A model generated the notes under the pieces. The model had not been told where the DNA came from, searched no databases, and worked only from the letters and a program-made list of their open reading frames with translations. Positions 39,866 through 46,795 of a stretch of 64,000 nucleotides of DNA are shown one piece after another. Within the stretch, counting starts at the first letter, position 1, and each line of letters opens with the position of its first letter. A program made the translations under genes and the position numbers. The DNA is from Escherichia phage kvi: the sequence record MN850615.1; one strand, written 5' to 3'.

Positions 39866-42109
39866 TTACAGCTTGCAAGATGAGCACTCGCTAGAGTCTT
39901 CCGTACCATCTGCACCGTCGCGAACGTTCGCATAATACAGGGTTTTCAGACCGTAATATTGAGCAAACAACATATCATCTAAAACATCAGCAATATCGAC
40001 TTTACCCGTCTTATAAGTGCTTGGATCGTAGGATGTGTTGGAACTAATCGCCTGATCTACAAACTTCTGCATGATCGCTGCCAGTGTCAGATAAGGCTTG
40101 TTACCTTTCTTGATCAGTGTCCAAAGCAGGTCAATAACATCAGCATTATTCTCTACGTTCGGAATAACCTGATTAAATTGCCCTTCTTTCGATCCTTTAA
40201 CCGATACAATACCGCGAGGCGGTTCAATACCGTTTGTGCTGTTAGATACCTGAGAAGACGACTCACAAGGCATCAGAGCCGAAAGCGTACTGTTACGAAT
40301 GCCATATTTTTTCAGGTCTTCGCGCAGTTCTTCCCAATCCATCTCATATACCGGATCAACCAGTTCATCTACTGTCTTTTTGTACCAGTCGATAGGCAGT
40401 TCACCGCGTCCATAACGTGTTTCGTGCATCAGTTCGCAAGCACCCTTCTCTTTAGCCAGTTGCACACTAGCCTTAATCAGAGCATATTGCAAGCGTTCAA
40501 ACGTTTTATGCGTAAACTCGTTAGCGTCTTCATATGTGAAGAAATTATCCGCGAGATACGATGCAAAGTTAGTCACCCCAACACCCAGAGAGCGACGTTT
40601 TTTGGATGTCAGAGCTTGCTCTACAGGATAATCCTGGTAATCTAACAGGTTGTCAAGTGCACGCACCATAACCATAGCAATGCGTTCTACTTCTTCCATA
40701 TTTTCGATATCAAAGTTTCCTAAAACATATGCTGCCAAAGTACATAGGCTGATCTCTGAATCATCACGACCCATCGGTTTTGTAGGCAGAGCAATTTCAC
40801 AACACAGGTTGGATTGTTTAATCGGTGCTACATTACGAATAAACGCCCCGTGATTGTTCATGTTGTCTGTGAACGTTGGGTAGATTCGACCAGTGTTAAA
40901 ACGTTCAATTGCCACCGCTAAAAACAGGTCTTCGGCTTTAACACGAGTTTTACGAACACTCGGATCTTTTTCCAGTTTTTCGTAAAGCTGGCGGAAACCT
41001 TCCTCATCTCGGAAGTATAGATCCCACAACAAGCCACCTGCAACATCTGGACTAAACAGAGTAATGTAATCCCGTTTAAGGAATCGCTCTACCATCAGGT
41101 TATTAATCTGTACGCCGTAATCAAGATGACGAATGCGGTTATCTTCCACCCCCTTATTGTTCTTTAACACAATCAGACTTTCAAACTCTAAATGCCACAT
41201 TGGGTAATAGAGAGTCGCCGCCCCGCCACGAATACCGCCTTGTGAGCATGACTTAACGGCAGTCTGAAAATGTTTCCAGAATGGGATAACGCCAGTATGA
41301 CGAACTTCACCATGCCCGATCTTAGATCCTTCCGCGCGAATCATACCAGCATTGATACCGATACCAGCACGCTTGCTAATATACTTGATGATTGCATTTG
41401 CTGTTTCGTTGATGCCCTGCAATGAGTCATCACTTTCAATCACCACACACGAACTAAATTGGCGTGTTGGGGTACGCACACCAGCCATAATCGGAGTAGG
41501 CAGAGATATTTGCTTATTCGCAACAGCATTATAAAAATCAATCACATGTTCAAGTCGATTTTCTGTCTCTTCTTGATGCAAGCACATACCGATCAGCATA
41601 TACGCAAATTGCGGTGTTTCGATGATTTTCTTAGTGCTGCGATCCTGAACAAGATATTTCTCTTTTAACTGCATAGCACCAGCATAGGTCATTTTAAAAT
41701 CAAGTTTATGGTCGATGAATTTCTCCAGATATTCCACTTCTTCACGGGAATACTTTTGCAGAATTTCGCGATCATATTTTCCGGTTGCAATATTACGCTC
41801 AATATGGCTGTAAAAATCAATCGGTTGGAATTGACCGTATACTGATTTGCGAAGCGCGAACATTGCAAGGTTACTTGCTACATATTGATAATCGGGTGTT
41901 TCTACAGTAATGTTATCTGCGGCGACCTTAATCAATACTTTCTGGATATCATTGGTAGACATACCTTCTGTCAGAAGTGGTTCAACCATATCAAACAATT
42001 CATATGGATCAACGTTATGACCTTCGGCTGCCGCTTCCAGAATTTTCATTACTTTTTCTTTTTCAAACGGAACAGTCAGACCGGAAGACTTAACAACATT
42101 TTTAATCAT
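39866..42109 (-). CDS. nrdA: Ribonucleotide reductase alpha subunit
   Basis: 747 aa; ATP-cone N-terminus; class Ia catalytic region. Confidence 0.95.
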   Translation of the reverse strand: MIKNVVKSSGLTVPFEKEKVMKILEAAAEGHNVDPYELFDMVEPLLTEGMSTNDIQKVLIKVAADNITVETPDYQYVASNLAMFALRKSVYGQFQPIDFYSHIERNIATGKYDREILQKYSREEVEYLEKFIDHKLDFKMTYAGAMQLKEKYLVQDRSTKKIIETPQFAYMLIGMCLHQEETENRLEHVIDFYNAVANKQISLPTPIMAGVRTPTRQFSSCVVIESDDSLQGINETANAIIKYISKRAGIGINAGMIRAEGSKIGHGEVRHTGVIPFWKHFQTAVKSCSQGGIRGGAATLYYPMWHLEFESLIVLKNNKGVEDNRIRHLDYGVQINNLMVERFLKRDYITLFSPDVAGGLLWDLYFRDEEGFRQLYEKLEKDPSVRKTRVKAEDLFLAVAIERFNTGRIYPTFTDNMNNHGAFIRNVAPIKQSNLCCEIALPTKPMGRDDSEISLCTLAAYVLGNFDIENMEEVERIAMVMVRALDNLLDYQDYPVEQALTSKKRRSLGVGVTNFASYLADNFFTYEDANEFTHKTFERLQYALIKASVQLAKEKGACELMHETRYGRGELPIDWYKKTVDELVDPVYEMDWEELREDLKKYGIRNSTLSALMPCESSSQVSNSTNGIEPPRGIVSVKGSKEGQFNQVIPNVENNADVIDLLWTLIKKGNKPYLTLAAIMQKFVDQAISSNTSYDPSTYKTGKVDIADVLDDMLFAQYYGLKTLYYANVRDGADGTEDSSECSSCKL

Positions 42110-42156
42110 ATTACCTCACTTCATATTTTAGCAGGAACAAGTTTATCCTCCATATT

Positions 42157-42180
42157 GGGGGCTTTCGCCCCCTTTGTTTA
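42157..42180 (+). other. GC hairpin with + strand T-tract in a - strand gene gap
   Basis: GGGGGC-TTTC-GCCCCC followed by TTTGTTTA. Confidence 0.4.
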
Positions 42181-43398
42181 TACTGCCATTTGAGCGGTGA
42201 TCGCTGGATGGCTTTGATAGTTGTGAATTTTAAAGTCTTTCGGAGTCTTTGTCAATACCTCATCTAAAGATTTAAATTCCGGCAACTCAATTGTTGGTTT
42301 ATCAAACGGAACACGGCTTAACTGTTCCATAACTTGATCAAAGTGGTTTTTGTAAATGTGAGTATCTCCACCAGAGAAAATCAGTTCTCCTACCTCAAGA
42401 TCACACATTTTCGCTATGATGTGAGTTAACAGCGCATAGCTGGCAACATTAAAGGGCAAGCCCAAAAAGCTGTCTACGCTTCGCTGAAACCACATACAAG
42501 ACAGTTTACCTTCATTGACGTAGAATTGCACGAAAGGATGACATACACCTAATACAGCATTATGTGTTCCCTGTACGTTCCATGAGTCAATAATGATCCG
42601 GCGATCCGTTGGATTGTTTTTAATTTGTTCAATCACGTTTTGTAACTGGTCTTCCCAAATCTTCGGGCGATAGACATATTCTTCATCGTCTTTAGTGCTT
42701 GATGTGTCTACGTCCATACTAACAAACATCGTGGTATCCGGTGCTATAATATCCCCACCCAGATAATCACTATCAAGCAGATAACCGAAATAACCATCAT
42801 CTACCCATTCCTGGAATCCCCACAAGCAATATGCATCATTAACAAAATTAGATTGAGTCTTCCAGTGGTCTGCTACCAGAATATAATCAAACTCTTCATA
42901 ACGCATACCACGCCAGATAGCACATAAACGGTCTTCTGTGTCATTGGTTGGCGTAAAGTCTTCTACCCACGGGTGCTTAAATGTATGTGTATATTTGCTC
43001 TTAACGCGCTTAATTTTGATTTCACCATGTGGATGAATCGGTTTGCGTCGCCACGCCATACCATACATATTGCCGACATTATAACCATTGAATCGCAAGG
43101 GATTCTTTTCTTTCATATCAAGACAGTTGCCGCGCCAAATATCAAAGGCTTCCTCGTCAAACTTGCCGCGTGTAATTTCCTGTAAGCGACGGCGGTCAAG
43201 TGATCCCTCCATAAACCATAGCAATTCGCCAATTACAGAGGCTGTAGCCATCTTTTTAGTGGTCAGTAATGGGAAACCCTTGCTTAAATCAATTCGCATC
43301 TCTGCGCCGAATTTAGAGAGCGTACCTACCCCCGTGCGGTCTTCACGAGGACAGCCATTATCAAGAACATCACGCAATAGTTTCAAATATTCTTTCAT
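42178..43398 (-). CDS. td: Thymidylate synthase with large internal insertion
   Basis: 406 aa; conserved TS blocks (FPLLTTKK, DSWNV, CH, GLPFNVASYALLTHIIAKMCDLEVGE) split by about 130 extra residues. Confidence 0.8.
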   Translation of the reverse strand: MKEYLKLLRDVLDNGCPREDRTGVGTLSKFGAEMRIDLSKGFPLLTTKKMATASVIGELLWFMEGSLDRRRLQEITRGKFDEEAFDIWRGNCLDMKEKNPLRFNGYNVGNMYGMAWRRKPIHPHGEIKIKRVKSKYTHTFKHPWVEDFTPTNDTEDRLCAIWRGMRYEEFDYILVADHWKTQSNFVNDAYCLWGFQEWVDDGYFGYLLDSDYLGGDIIAPDTTMFVSMDVDTSSTKDDEEYVYRPKIWEDQLQNVIEQIKNNPTDRRIIIDSWNVQGTHNAVLGVCHPFVQFYVNEGKLSCMWFQRSVDSFLGLPFNVASYALLTHIIAKMCDLEVGELIFSGGDTHIYKNHFDQVMEQLSRVPFDKPTIELPEFKSLDEVLTKTPKDFKIHNYQSHPAITAQMAV

Positions 43399-43639
43399 CC
43401 CACATCACCTTTTTCTTATTGATTGCTTTCTTACGCAGTTTTGCTACTGTCTCGTCAATGTCTATAAAGATAACACCACGGTCGAATATAGTAGCAGGTC
43501 TTGATATATCGCTATTTTCTTGCACAGGAAACCATGATGCGCTCGCTTCATCATAGAGATATTGTAAACCGTAATAATCTACGGCTACTGCGTAGTTTTC
43601 ACTGGTAGCTGTCCATAATTGAATAATACCGACTTTCAT
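43370..43639 (-). CDS. Hypothetical protein
   Basis: 89 aa from ATG 43639. Confidence 0.45.
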   Translation of the reverse strand: MKVGIIQLWTATSENYAVAVDYYGLQYLYDEASASWFPVQENSDISRPATIFDRGVIFIDIDETVAKLRKKAINKKKVMWDERIFETIA

Positions 43640-43731
43640 TATTGTTCCCGTCCGCAATGTAAGCACCGACTACCAGCAAACATTAAAGATTCACCACAAT
43701 GTTTGCACTCATAATCTGTCAGAATTTTCAT
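43639..43731 (-). CDS. Tiny zinc-ribbon ORF (30 aa)
   Basis: Not in track; CKHCG..CLHCG; TAATG coupling. Confidence 0.25.
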   Translation of the reverse strand: MKILTDYECKHCGESLMFAGSRCLHCGREQ

Positions 43732-43732
43732 G

Positions 43733-44314
43733 TTACGCCTTCTTACGTTCTAAAATTTGTTCGCTGATCAGGTAATTATCAAGGAAGTAATTATGTTCTT
43801 CTTTGGTTACAAAGTCAAAATACAATTCCTGAATCATTTCCTTAGATATACCAACATCATATTCAAATGGATCGTTGATCCCTGAACGTTTAACATACGT
43901 TAACACAATACGGTCCGCAAAGTCAACTGCTTTTTCAATCAGGGAAGGTCCACCAATAACGCTTACCAAACCTTGCAATTTCTCTATGACTTCTAATAAT
44001 TCCTTCAATCCACCATCATTAGTAATCGCGGTATACACATCAGGTTGTTCGCCGTTTTTTGCTTTCGGTGCTGGCTTACTAGTATCGGTACTAACAACCA
44101 CATTCACACGACCTTCCAGTGCTTTAGGGAGACTTTCAAAGGTATTACGTCCCATTACAACCGCCGCAAGATCAACATCTCCCATAGTGCGCATTTTAAA
44201 GTTTTCCATGTCCTTTTTAATTGGACGCCCCCAGGGTAAACCGCCTTTAAAACCAAAAGCCCAATTTTCATCTGACATTTTAGTGTCACCAATCGCAAAT
44301 ACACATTGAATCAT
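43733..44314 (-). CDS. frd: Dihydrofolate reductase
   Basis: 193 aa; GLPW motif; position next to td. Confidence 0.85.
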   Translation of the reverse strand: MIQCVFAIGDTKMSDENWAFGFKGGLPWGRPIKKDMENFKMRTMGDVDLAAVVMGRNTFESLPKALEGRVNVVVSTDTSKPAPKAKNGEQPDVYTAITNDGGLKELLEVIEKLQGLVSVIGGPSLIEKAVDFADRIVLTYVKRSGINDPFEYDVGISKEMIQELYFDFVTKEEHNYFLDNYLISEQILERKKA

Positions 44315-45163: not shown

Positions 45164-46138
45164 TTACATCGCTAACAGAGAGTCCAGGTCATCCAGATCA
45201 GAAGCGGAGGAAGTACCGCCACCCAGGTCCAGAGATGCCATCAGGTCATCAGCGGAAGAATCTAACGCCGTGCTAGCTGCGTTAATACCAACTACAGTGC
45301 TAGCTGCGGTCATACCAGAATCGAATGCATTCATCTGTGCGTCAAAATCGTCAAGCTGGCTGTTAATCGCTGCCGCAGCACTGGAAGCCGCAGCACCAGC
45401 TACCATAGAAACGCCCATAGTTTTCTTAAATTTGGTTTCCAGTTCATCGAACGGTTTAAACTGGCTAGGCGCTACAATCTCACTCAGATCAACCATGTTT
45501 TCCATCAGATATTTCTGATATGCTTCGTCTTCAATTTTCGGAAGCTGTGATTGCTGCATGAAACGAGAATCATCATAGTTCTGGTGTTTATCAACCTTCT
45601 TAGCTTTCAGGAGGAAGTTAGCACCGGAGAACACACAAGTTACATCTACCGGAACTTCGCCCATATCGGTATTCACGTTCACCATCGCAACGATCTTATC
45701 ATAAATTTTCTGACCGAAGCGGAATTTGAATACCTTACCTTCATTTTCTGGCGCTTGAGGATCTTTCAGTACCAGAATATTTGCGTAGTAAGAGGCTTTA
45801 CGCTTAATCAGTTGCCATTCGGTTTTATCGGTATTGTACAGGTCTTTTTCGTTAATATATTTGCACACAGGGCAAGAATCAAAATCACCGTGGGTGCTGG
45901 AGCAGTTTTCCCAATACCATTTACCATTAACTTTGAAGGAATGGTTTACCAGTTTCACAATCGGCAGACCGTCTTCTGTCTTAGACGGCAGGAAGCGAAT
46001 CAGGGCTTCACCGTTACCTGCTGCATCAGTCTTAATCTTCCACTCTTTCGGATCTTCTTTGGAGAAACCGTTGCCACCTTTCAGTGCGGCCAGTTGAGCT
46101 TGCAGTTTGGAGCTATCTTGACGACGAAACATGTTCAT
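45164..46138 (-). CDS. 32: Single-stranded DNA-binding protein gp32
   Basis: 324 aa; [19 protein letters not shown] zinc site, acidic C-terminus. Confidence 0.95.
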
Positions 46139-46198: not shown

Positions 46199-46795
46199 TT
46201 AATTGCTTGTCAATACTTTATCAATTATATCTAACAGTTTTGGCTTTCTATTTTCAAATTCTAACATCTCTTCGGGAGAAATGTCAACTACTTCTGTTTT
46301 GTTGAAAAAGTTTGGGTCTATAGCATCAGCAACAAAGTTTCTCGCAAGTGCTGCCGCTTTCTCATGAACATATATTCCCAAATATATCAACTTCTTTCTT
46401 TCGACCTGAATATTGGCAACATATTTACCATCTCGTTTATAAAGACTAACACCGATATATTCAGACGATCGGCCTTTCTGTTTACCCATATTTCTTGAGT
46501 TTTGTTGCTCGTTCGCATCTCTCAAGTTTTCAATCCGATTATCTGTTATAATTCGGTTAACATGGTCAACGTATTTTGGCATGTATCCATGATGCATAAA
46601 GAAAATTATTCTATGCTCTTTATGATGTTTACCATCGATACACACCAATCTGTATCCATGACTAGGATTAACTCCACCCGCTCTAGATCCGACTTTATGC
46701 TTTCTGTTTGTCGATATCTTGCGAATCAGCTTACCGTTATCATATTTAAAGAGTTCATGACAACGAGCATACAATTCAGGATCATATGTTTTCAC
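46199..46795 (-). CDS. HNH homing endonuclease with AP2-like DNA-binding domain
   Basis: 198 aa, GTG start; HNH block (DHVNRIITDNRIENLR) and AP2-like (SEYIGVSLYKRDGKYVANIQ); inserted between 32 and 59. Confidence 0.7.
   Translation of the reverse strand: MKTYDPELYARCHELFKYDNGKLIRKISTNRKHKVGSRAGGVNPSHGYRLVCIDGKHHKEHRIIFFMHHGYMPKYVDHVNRIITDNRIENLRDANEQQNSRNMGKQKGRSSEYIGVSLYKRDGKYVANIQVERKKLIYLGIYVHEKAAALARNFVADAIDPNFFNKTEVVDISPEEMLEFENRKPKLLDIIDKVLTSN

What the first reader, a model, noticed from the sequence alone, without database searches (positions are those of the whole stretch)
42651..43044. Thymidylate synthase carries a roughly 130-residue in-frame insertion
The td product is 406 aa against about 264-286 aa for E. 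coli and T4 enzymes. All conserved blocks are present, but about 130 extra residues sit between the WR block and the IEQIKNNP block (roughly residues 119-250). The insert is open in frame and lacks intein terminal residues, so it is a protein insertion rather than an intron or intein. Its position corresponds to the variable small domain where the Lactobacillus casei enzyme has its shorter insert.
Basis: partly seen in the sequence, partly recalled or inferred. Interest (0 to 1): 0.55.

Follow-up and report, generated by a model that had tools for sequence, protein, structure and literature searches.

The report
Fossil homing-endonuclease domain inside thymidylate synthase
The phage's thymidylate synthase really does carry a ~130-residue folded extra domain, and it is the stripped-down remnant of a mobile "homing endonuclease" module that has inserted in frame, with no intron or intein, at one loop of this enzyme in many phage lineages.

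Summary
The td ORF (42178..43398, minus strand, 406 aa) is a complete ThyA-type thymidylate synthase (TS). A single block, residues 118-249, sits between the invariant YGxQWR motif and the DQ helix. The window is a Krischvirus (RB49 group), and all 58 relatives in the phage collection carry the block.

There are no stops in frame, no Rfam hit and no intein junction residues. The insert has dN/dS 0.11-0.34, and AlphaFold2 folds it confidently (pLDDT about 92).

The claimed equivalence to the L. casei insert is wrong. That insert lies upstream of YGxQWR. This one lies downstream, in the loop where human TS has its 12-residue insert.

The block is homologous to the core of free-standing IPA-HNH homing endonucleases such as ICP1 gp59 (hhalign 97.9%, E 4e-13). 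At least 60 diverse TS clusters carry a fuller version of about 250 aa at the same site. One of them has a TS core 85% identical to an insert-less TS, which suggests mobility. The window's copy has lost the N-terminal module, the C-terminal part and the family's near-invariant Lys and Asn. It is most likely a nuclease-dead passenger or co-opted domain on an active enzyme.

The parts
42178..43398 (-). td gene: ThyA-type thymidylate synthase, 406 aa plus stop codon, in the T4-like frd-td-nrdA order
   Evidence: ORF list; PF00303 1.5e-84 and TIGR03284 8.6e-85; 58 Krischvirus records annotate it as td / thymidylate synthase
43048..43398 (-). TS N-terminal part, residues 1-117, ending in the invariant YGMAWR (E. 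coli Y94-R99)
   Evidence: Aligns to E. coli ThyA 1-99
42652..43047 (-). The insert, residues 118-249 (132 aa): a reduced IPA-HNH-type homing-endonuclease core on a two-stranded stalk
   Evidence: Unmatched by any TS profile. hhalign of short-form inserts vs free-standing IPA-HNH proteins: 97.9%, E 4e-13. tblastn to the long TS inserts: 1e-12. pLDDT about 90-98
43009..43047 (-). Stalk strand 1 (residues 118-130, RKPIHPHGEIKIK). The PHG..I.R motif is shared by short and long forms
   Evidence: DSSP strand E118-130 in the full-length model; conserved in alignment A1
42943..43008 (-). Variable linker (residues 131-152). It occupies the place where long forms carry the ~75-aa N-terminal beta-rich module ending in GVGYLG
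   Evidence: Alignments A1 and A5. The long form aligns to free-standing template columns 8-169, the short form only to columns 54-165
42799..42942 (-). Helical core (residues 153-200) with the family's conserved W162, M165, W179, N184-F185 and AYCLWGFQEWVD
   Evidence: Helices H153-171, 177-180, 182-189 and 195-200. W/W/F columns are invariant in 172 family members
42715..42798 (-). Degenerate beta-hairpin (residues 201-228). It reads LDSD...GGD...APDTTMF where the family has LDKD...G(S/N)(N/K).YSPDTC.F
   Evidence: Strands E206-209 and E224-227. The family Lys (81/85 free-standing, 70/72 long TS forms) is Ser210 here
42679..42714 (-). Acidic linker (residues 229-240, DVDTSSTKDDEE). It replaces the segment that carries the family's conserved Asn and the ~50-aa C-terminal part of the long forms
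   Evidence: No helix is predicted after E224-227. The Asn column (75/85 and 64/72) is Asp231 here
42652..42678 (-). Stalk strand 2 (residues 241-249, YVYRPKIWE). V(Y/V)RP.I(W/Y) is conserved in short and long forms
   Evidence: Strand E241-250 pairs with E118-130; alignment A1
42181..42651 (-). TS C-terminal part, residues 250-406 (DQLQNVIEQIKNNP...AQMAV), with R266/R267, C286 and the rest of the active site
   Evidence: Aligns to E. coli ThyA 110-264; invariant columns

Best explanation
The extra residues 118-249 are a translated, independently folded domain descended from an IPA-HNH-type homing-endonuclease module (the family of Vibrio phage ICP1 gp59). That module inserted in frame, without an intron or intein, into the surface loop of thymidylate synthase (TS) just after the YGxQWR motif. 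In many phages, including jumbo coliphages and Klebsiella phages, the module is nearly complete at about 250 aa: N-terminal beta-rich module plus LDKD core plus a C-terminal segment. In the Krischvirus lineage it has been cut down by internal deletions to the ~100-residue core, held away from the enzyme on a two-stranded beta stalk. It has lost the family's near-invariant Lys and Asn and both flanking modules. The most likely working picture is therefore a catalytically normal TS dimer carrying a nuclease-dead passenger domain. Shown: the insert exists, it is translated and constrained, its homology, the reduction, and the shared insertion site. Inferred: TS activity is retained, nuclease activity is lost, and the direction of change was long to short. 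Purifying selection on the insert is weaker than on the enzyme. This is expected if the domain must still fold so as not to poison TS, and it leaves room for a co-opted binding role.
For: Single-block insert with all TS catalytic residues intact. No stops in frame, all other frames closed, no second copy in the window. No Rfam family. dN/dS of the insert is 0.11-0.34 against 0.01-0.10 for the core; against the P0002 gene (dS about 0.5-0.7) it is 0.11-0.17 vs about 0.10. AF2 full-length model: pLDDT 92.4, pTM 0.91, insert well ordered. Insert-only model: pLDDT 91.9. Homology chain: window insert to long TS inserts by tblastn, 1e-12. Long insert to PHROG 'HNH endonuclease' families at 4e-32 and to 1,436 phage records that include ICP1 gp59. 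Short-only profile vs free-standing-only profile: 97.9%, E 4e-13. Long-only profile vs free-standing-only profile: 100%, E 1.8e-46. Foldseek on viral models returns a 564-aa TS and small phage proteins of this family. ICP1 gp59 is a founding IPA-HNH member in PMC10448857. An exhaustive profile search gave 8,239 relatives; 69 of the best 150 are TS-embedded. Signature loss in the short forms. The short-form genes examined (P0002, P0005 and P0006) sit in the frd-td-nrdA context of T4-like phages.
Confidence: 0.7

Rival explanations
1. Co-opted functional domain. The reduced HNH-like core is no longer a nuclease but has acquired a role, for example binding DNA, RNA or a partner protein. It could tether TS to the replication / dNTP-synthesis machinery or regulate td expression. 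This role, and not mere foldability, would keep it under selection.
For: dN/dS is 0.11-0.34, and several motifs are invariant across short forms that share only 40-60% identity in the insert. The domain is fixed in all 58 Krischvirus genomes and in related uncultured T4-like phages. Inactive His-Me finger domains recruited for binding are documented (Smad MH1, Enpp; PMC5714182).
Against: The conserved residues are largely buried-type aromatics (W, F, Y, L), which suits a folding core. The DNA-binding modules of the parent family (AP2, N-terminal module) are exactly what has been lost. No partner or ligand is indicated by any result.
Confidence: 0.22
2. Still-active selfish element. The insert in this phage retains endonuclease or nickase activity as part of Td and promotes its own inheritance (homing or marker exclusion) in mixed infections.
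For: The parent family is regarded as homing endonucleases. Presence of the module is polymorphic between TS cores that are 85% identical (P0017 vs P0095), which suggests that long forms are or recently were mobile. PacI shows that a His-less His-Me finger can cut.
Against: The window copy lacks the family Lys and Asn, the segment after the second strand, the N-terminal module and the C-terminal part. It is fixed in its lineage and not sporadic: the nearest insert-less TS core is only 55% identical.
Confidence: 0.04
3. Spliced element. The segment is removed as RNA (group I/II intron) or as protein (intein, BIL or another autoprocessing domain), so the mature enzyme is of normal length.
For: T4 td famously carries a group I intron, and phage TS genes host inteins.
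Against: The reading frame is continuous through both junctions in about 80 diverged homologues. There is no Rfam hit and no Hint/intein Pfam hit. The junction residues are wrong for protein splicing. The segment shows amino-acid-level homology to free-standing proteins and protein-level selection. The predicted stalk strands pair with each other and continue directly into the TS fold.
Confidence: 0.02
4. Lineage-specific elaboration of the TS small domain, equivalent to the L. casei insert and unrelated to mobile elements.
For: TS small-domain loops do vary in length. The window protein also has about 17 extra residues at the L. casei site, as T4 Td does.
Against: The insert lies on the other side of the YGxQWR motif from the L. 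casei insert. It is significantly homologous to free-standing endonuclease-family proteins.
Confidence: 0.02

Closest known systems
IPA-HNH homing endonucleases (ICP1 gp59, gp115/116, gp209; Barth et al. 2023, PMC10448857)
   Same: The insert's core is homologous to the N-terminal divergent 'HNH' domain of this family. The long TS-embedded forms also contain the family's N-terminal beta-rich module.
   Different: Family members are free-standing genes between essential genes and carry a C-terminal AP2 DNA-binding domain. Here the domain is embedded in frame inside an enzyme. It lacks AP2 and the N-module and has lost the LDKD Lys and the conserved Asn.
ShiLan domain of mycobacteriophage DNA methylases (Arsenault et al. 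2025, PMC11855218)
   Same: An insertion in a phage enzyme gene that reads through in frame with no stops, has no intein or intron features, and is predicted to protrude from the host protein.
   Different: In ShiLan the HNH endonuclease is encoded out of frame and the in-frame product is a featureless hairpin. Here the in-frame product itself is the endonuclease-family domain and no alternative frame is open. ShiLan is sporadic, whereas the window's insert is fixed in its genus.
Inteins with in-frame HNH or LAGLIDADG endonucleases, including those in phage thymidylate synthases
   Same: A homing-endonuclease module sits in frame inside a conserved nucleotide-metabolism enzyme, at a conserved sequence.
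   Different: There is no Hint splicing domain and no splice-junction residues (sequence). The domain must stay in the mature protein.
T4 td group I intron with I-TevI
   Same: The same host gene (td) in the same phage group was invaded by a homing endonuclease.
   Different: A different site, a different endonuclease family (GIY-YIG), and RNA splicing. No intron is detectable here.
Insertions in other thymidylate synthases (L. casei 50-aa small-domain insert; 12-aa insert in human/eukaryotic TS)
   Same: The site coincides with the loop where human TS has extra residues (FGAEYRDMESDYSGQG), so this loop tolerates insertions.
   Different: The insert is ten times larger, is an autonomous folded domain, and is of mobile-element origin. 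It is not at the L. casei site.
Catalytically inactive His-Me finger domains recruited for other roles (Smad MH1, Enpp nuclease-like domain; PMC5714182)
   Same: A nuclease-superfamily domain that has lost key residues is retained inside a protein with another function.
   Different: Those cases have demonstrated binding or structural roles. No role is known here, and the superfamily assignment itself is only weakly supported.

Membership tests
ThyA-type thymidylate synthase (PF00303 / TIGR03284) | Full-length profile match above the curated cut-off | tested here: met
   PF00303 283.8 bits (cut-off 24.3); TIGR03284 284.5 bits (cut-off 108.35), in two pieces flanking the insert
ThyA-type thymidylate synthase (PF00303 / TIGR03284) | Catalytic Cys (E. 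coli C146) and the dUMP/folate-binding residues R21, R126', R127', R166, S167, D169, N177, H207, Y209, E58, W80, Y94 | tested here: met
   C286, R21, R266, R267, R306, S307, D309, N317, H347, Y349, E58, W88 and Y112 are in invariant columns with four verified reference enzymes
ThyA-type thymidylate synthase (PF00303 / TIGR03284) | Enzymatic activity (dUMP to dTMP) | not testable with these tools
   Needs an enzyme assay or thyA complementation
IPA-HNH homing endonucleases (PMC10448857) | Sequence homology to the divergent N-terminal HNH-like domain of ICP1 gp59-type proteins | tested here: met
   Short-form profile vs free-standing profile (includes ICP1 gp59): 97.9%, E 4e-13, 98 columns. Foldseek hits to small phage proteins of the family
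IPA-HNH homing endonucleases (PMC10448857) | Family signature L-D-K-D ... T ... N (K in 81/85 and N in 75/85 free-standing members) | tested here: not met
   The window has LDSD (Ser210) and Asp231. Other short forms have C, Q or L at the Lys position
IPA-HNH homing endonucleases (PMC10448857) | C-terminal AP2 DNA-binding domain | tested here: not met
   No AP2 hit in the window protein or insert at E<=10. Free-standing relatives show AP2. The corresponding segment is replaced by a 12-residue acidic linker
IPA-HNH homing endonucleases (PMC10448857) | Free-standing gene placed between essential genes | tested here: not met
   Embedded in frame in td, with no internal open alternative frame
HNH / His-Me finger superfamily | beta-beta-alpha-metal fold with a catalytic His (or substitute) and a metal-ligand Asn/His | tested here: inconclusive
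Intein (Hint domain) | N-terminal Cys/Ser, C-terminal His-Asn followed by Cys/Ser/Thr, and Hint-fold blocks | tested here: not met
   The junctions read WR|RKPIHPHG and KIWE|DQL. No Hint/intein Pfam family at E<=1
Group I / group II intron | Ribozyme core detectable by covariance model; interruption of the reading frame | tested here: not met
   No Rfam match at E<=1 over 41900-43700. The frame is continuous in all homologues
L. casei-type TS small-domain insert | Insertion between the WDEW helix and the YGxQWR motif (L. casei residues 90-139) | tested here: not met
   The window insert lies after YGxQWR. The L. casei insert aligns to a different gap
ShiLan-type unspliced insertion element (PMC11855218) | Hidden endonuclease ORF in an alternative frame of the insertion | tested here: not met
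   The other sense-strand frames have 5 and 17 stops; the longest open stretch in any other frame is 74 codons, on the antisense strand

The most novel reading that the evidence does not exclude
The long (~250 aa) versions found in at least 60 diverse TS clusters may be a previously undescribed kind of mobile element. It would be a homing endonuclease that invades a conserved enzyme gene directly in frame, needs no intron or intein because it lands in a tolerant surface loop, and is expressed and acts as part of the TS polypeptide. The Krischvirus insert would then be the first recognised 'fossil' stage of this cycle, possibly co-opted for a new binding function. The ~30-residue loops in some insert-less TSs would be the last vestige.
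Probability: 0.3. Interest if true: 0.8.

Novelty: new variant of a known kind. Interest (0 to 1): 0.6.

Why it matters
Homing endonucleases are thought to colonise essential genes only when shielded by a self-splicing intron or intein, or to sit beside such genes as free-standing ORFs. Here an endonuclease-family module sits unspliced and in frame inside a highly conserved enzyme. It occupies one and the same loop in many phage lineages, and its presence is polymorphic between close TS relatives in at least one of them. This points to a third way of colonising genes: insertion into a tolerant loop. It also provides a natural decay series (about 270, 170, 130 and perhaps 30 residues) for studying how selfish DNA turns into a permanent protein domain. 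In practice it explains an odd gene length in a well-used phage genus (RB49, Phi1, JSE and many therapy candidates). It flags mis-annotations, since some of these TSs are labelled 'HNH endonuclease' or 'hypothetical protein'. It also identifies a TS loop that tolerates insertion of whole domains, which is useful for enzyme engineering.

Tried and rejected
(1) The search for homologous proteins with the 131-aa insert alone returned nothing ('no candidate shares three 5-residue words'), although near-identical proteins are in the database. This is a limit of the word index and not evidence of absence.

(2) Pfam and NCBIfam on the short and long inserts: no family.

(3) Profile of insert plus free-standing proteins against PDB sequences: nothing. 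Foldseek against the PDB: nothing significant. The afdb50 library was unavailable.

(4) Intron hypothesis: Rfam scan at permissive E-values gave nothing.

(5) ShiLan-type hidden out-of-frame endonuclease: rejected, because no alternative frame is open.

(6) Derivation from the canonical HNH_3+AP2 endonuclease resident in the same window (46199..46795): rejected, because hhalign shows no similarity to the IPA-HNH profile.

(7) Module embedded in other host enzymes: ten long non-TS hits had no recognisable host domains, so among the best hits TS is the only embedding host seen.

(8) Internal promoter or terminator signals in td: at chance level.

(9) Literature: no paper in the held library describes the RB49-group Td insert or an endonuclease-family domain inside ThyA. 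Desplats et al. 2002 is not held.

(10) Geometry of the domain relative to the active site and dimer interface could not be measured, because model coordinates are not exposed.

Full report
OBSERVATION. The window is a Krischvirus, the RB49/Phi1/JSE group of T4-like coliphages. A megablast of the gene finds 58 phage records at 90-99% identity, all covering at least 80% of the query. The ORF 42178..43398 on the minus strand encodes 406 aa. It lies between frd (43733..44314) and nrdA (39866..42109), which is the T4 gene order. Pfam PF00303, NCBIfam thymidylate-synthase models and about 120 PDB thymidylate synthases (TS) match it in two pieces, roughly residues 1-117 and 250-406. I verified my reference sequences for E. 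coli, T4, L. casei and human TS as exact matches to PDB chains 1aob_A, 1tis_A, 1lca_A and 1hw3_A, then aligned them with the window protein. W116-R117 and D250-Q251 fall in invariant columns. Between them the window has 132 residues, where E. coli has 10, T4 has 5 and human has 17. Every catalytic and substrate-binding residue of ThyA is present.

NOT AN INTRON OR INTEIN. The coding frame through 42651-43044 has no stop, and every other frame on both strands is closed. A permissive Rfam scan of 41900-43700 finds nothing. The junctions (WR|RKPIHPHG... and ...RPKIWE|DQL) lack intein splice residues, and Pfam reports no Hint domain. Nei-Gojobori dN/dS was computed on six Krischvirus genes and three metagenomic relatives. 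It gives omega 0.11-0.34 for the insert against 0.01-0.10 for the TS core. Against the most informative partner (the P0002 gene, dS about 0.5-0.7) it is 0.11-0.17 against about 0.10. AlphaFold2 with a 36-sequence alignment gives pLDDT 92.4 and pTM 0.91, and the insert is as confident as the enzyme. Strands 118-130 and 241-250 form a two-stranded stalk. This stalk carries a compact domain of four helices (153-200) and a beta-hairpin (206-209, 224-227). The insert modelled alone gives pLDDT 91.9.

POSITION. In alignment A4 the L. casei 50 residues fall between WDEWA and the YGxQWR motif. The window's insert falls after that motif, in the loop where E. coli has AWPTPDGRHI and human TS has its extra residues.

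WHAT THE INSERT IS. A tblastn of the insert against phage genomes finds all Krischviruses. It also finds, at 29-32% identity (E down to 1e-12), longer TS genes in the jumbo phages Escherichia UE-S1 and Klebsiella phiKp_21, and TS-like genes annotated 'HNH endonuclease' in Vibrio phages D69 and D148. These carry a 200-250-residue insert at exactly the same site. The long inserts match PHROG families annotated HNH endonuclease (phrog_2081 4e-32, phrog_953 6e-25). They also hit 1,436 phage records. The examples I examined are small free-standing genes wedged between replication genes: Vibrio D342 between primase and polymerase, Acinetobacter Ab7, Bacillus B4, and ICP1 gp59 just after the DNA polymerase. 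ICP1 gp59 is a founding member of the 'IPA-HNH' homing endonucleases of Barth et al. 2023. That family has a divergent N-terminal HNH-like domain that Pfam HNH_3 does not detect, plus a C-terminal AP2 domain, and it is enriched in Barbaviruses and Flaumdraviruses (PMC10448857). My hit list agrees with this: 115 Rheinheimera phage records, weak AP2 hits in Ab7 and B4, and a Pseudomonas KIL3b protein in the fold search. Profile-profile tests make the link direct. Short-form inserts alone against free-standing proteins alone give 97.9% probability, E 4e-13, over 98 columns. Long-form inserts against the same free-standing profile give 100%, E 1.8e-46, covering template columns 8-169, that is from the N-terminus of the free-standing proteins through the core.

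HOW COMMON, AND IS IT MOBILE. A word-index search with the full protein returned 17 over-length TSs of 401-613 aa, and everything below them was of normal length. An exhaustive HMMER search of 1.84 billion cluster representatives with the insert profile found 8,239 relatives, 2,765 of them at E<=1e-10. Of the best 150, 69 are TS-family proteins. Sixty have both TS halves flanking the module and most are 500-580 aa long; the other 81 have no TS. Ten long non-TS hits showed no other host enzyme. I compared TS cores with the insert columns removed. P0017 (559 aa, from a 97-kb phage-like contig with DHFR upstream) is 85% identical to the insert-less P0095 but only 64% identical to any other insert-bearing TS. 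The module sits at the identical site. Several other long forms also have an insert-less nearest neighbour, though by small margins. Presence of the module is therefore not confined to one TS clade. That fits repeated invasion of one target site, although precise loss cannot be excluded. In contrast, the window's lineage is embedded among insert-bearing TSs, its nearest insert-less core is 55% identical, and the insert is fixed in the genus. The short-form genes whose contigs I examined (P0002, P0005 and P0006) lie in frd-td-nrdA contexts of T4-like phages.

MECHANISM (best estimate). Td is a normal ThyA dimer, an inference from the intact residues and fold. It carries on a beta stalk a domain descended from a homing-endonuclease module that once inserted in frame into the loop after YGxQWR. 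The domain must still fold, which explains omega below 1. It is less constrained than the enzyme, which explains an omega several-fold higher than the core within the genus and a 4-codon indel polymorphism (SEYN in RB49, SSG23 and Brandy). A co-opted binding role cannot be excluded; I rate it at about 0.2. Continued homing activity of this copy is unlikely, at about 0.04.

COMPARISON WITH KNOWN SYSTEMS AND NOVELTY. The closest family by descent is IPA-HNH, but the window's insert fails four of that family's five defining features, so it is a derivative and not a member. The closest concept is the ShiLan insertion in mycobacteriophage methylases. That element is also unspliced and reads through in frame, but its endonuclease is encoded out of frame (PMC11855218). 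Inteins and the T4 td intron share the logic of invading this kind of gene but rely on splicing. I found no paper in the held library describing the RB49-group insert or an endonuclease-family domain inside ThyA. The sequences themselves have been public since RB49 was deposited (AY343333) and are simply annotated as td. I therefore rate this a new variant of a known kind. The window's copy is a fossil of moderate interest. The wider class of long, possibly active, in-frame modules is the more interesting lead.

Noticed in passing
window 46199..46795 (-): A canonical free-standing HNH_3 (2.2e-11) + AP2 (7.4e-05) homing-endonuclease gene of 198 aa lies immediately upstream of gp32 (45164..46138), about 3 kb from td. 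hhalign shows it is unrelated to the td insert's family.
   Followed up: partly
window 42157..42172: A perfect GC-rich palindromic hairpin (GGGGGCTTTCGCCCCC) lies just after the td stop codon and before nrdA. It could be a terminator or an RNA-stability element on the coding strand.
   Followed up: no
window 43370..43666 (-): A small ORF between frd and td overlaps the td start codon. It has no Pfam hit. Relatives annotate it as an 89-aa hypothetical protein (RB49ORF236c).
   Followed up: no
window about 42880..42890 (insert residues ~170-171); L013, L015, L016: A four-codon indel polymorphism (SEYN) lies inside the insert. RB49, SSG23 and Brandy Td are 410 aa, while the window, Phi1 and phiS are 406 aa. 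It sits where the long forms have the 'RCYNP....Y' segment.
   Followed up: partly
proteins P0085 and P0095 (insert-less TS, about 305-317 aa): These otherwise normal TSs carry about 30 extra residues in the same loop. They include 'NW(Y/F)SGP', which MAFFT repeatedly aligns to the module's 'EWVDSG'. This may be the last vestige of a decayed module. It is speculative.
   Followed up: no
L011 4588..7239 (metagenomic T4-like phage encoding P0005): nrdA appears split into two ORFs by a 237-aa free-standing ORF with a faint I-HmuI NUMOD-like hit. This resembles the mobE-split nrdA of Aeromonas phage Aeh1.
   Followed up: no
L008 671..1693 and L009 476..1693: In the phage that encodes the 88%-identical Td (P0002), a CapR-domain ORF of 340-405 aa sits between gp32 and frd, a stretch where the ORFs listed in the window are only small ones. 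This suggests turnover of endonuclease-related genes in the region.
   Followed up: no
L003 2051..3484 (Vibrio phage D69): A TS-like protein that carries the long module is annotated only as 'HNH endonuclease'. Its TS core is divergent (for example TRSG in place of DRTG), so it may be a TS paralogue such as a pyrimidine hydroxymethylase.
   Followed up: no
window 45200..45400: A local GC spike of 0.54 is simply the Ala/Ser-rich acidic C-terminal tail of gp32. It is ordinary.
   Followed up: yes
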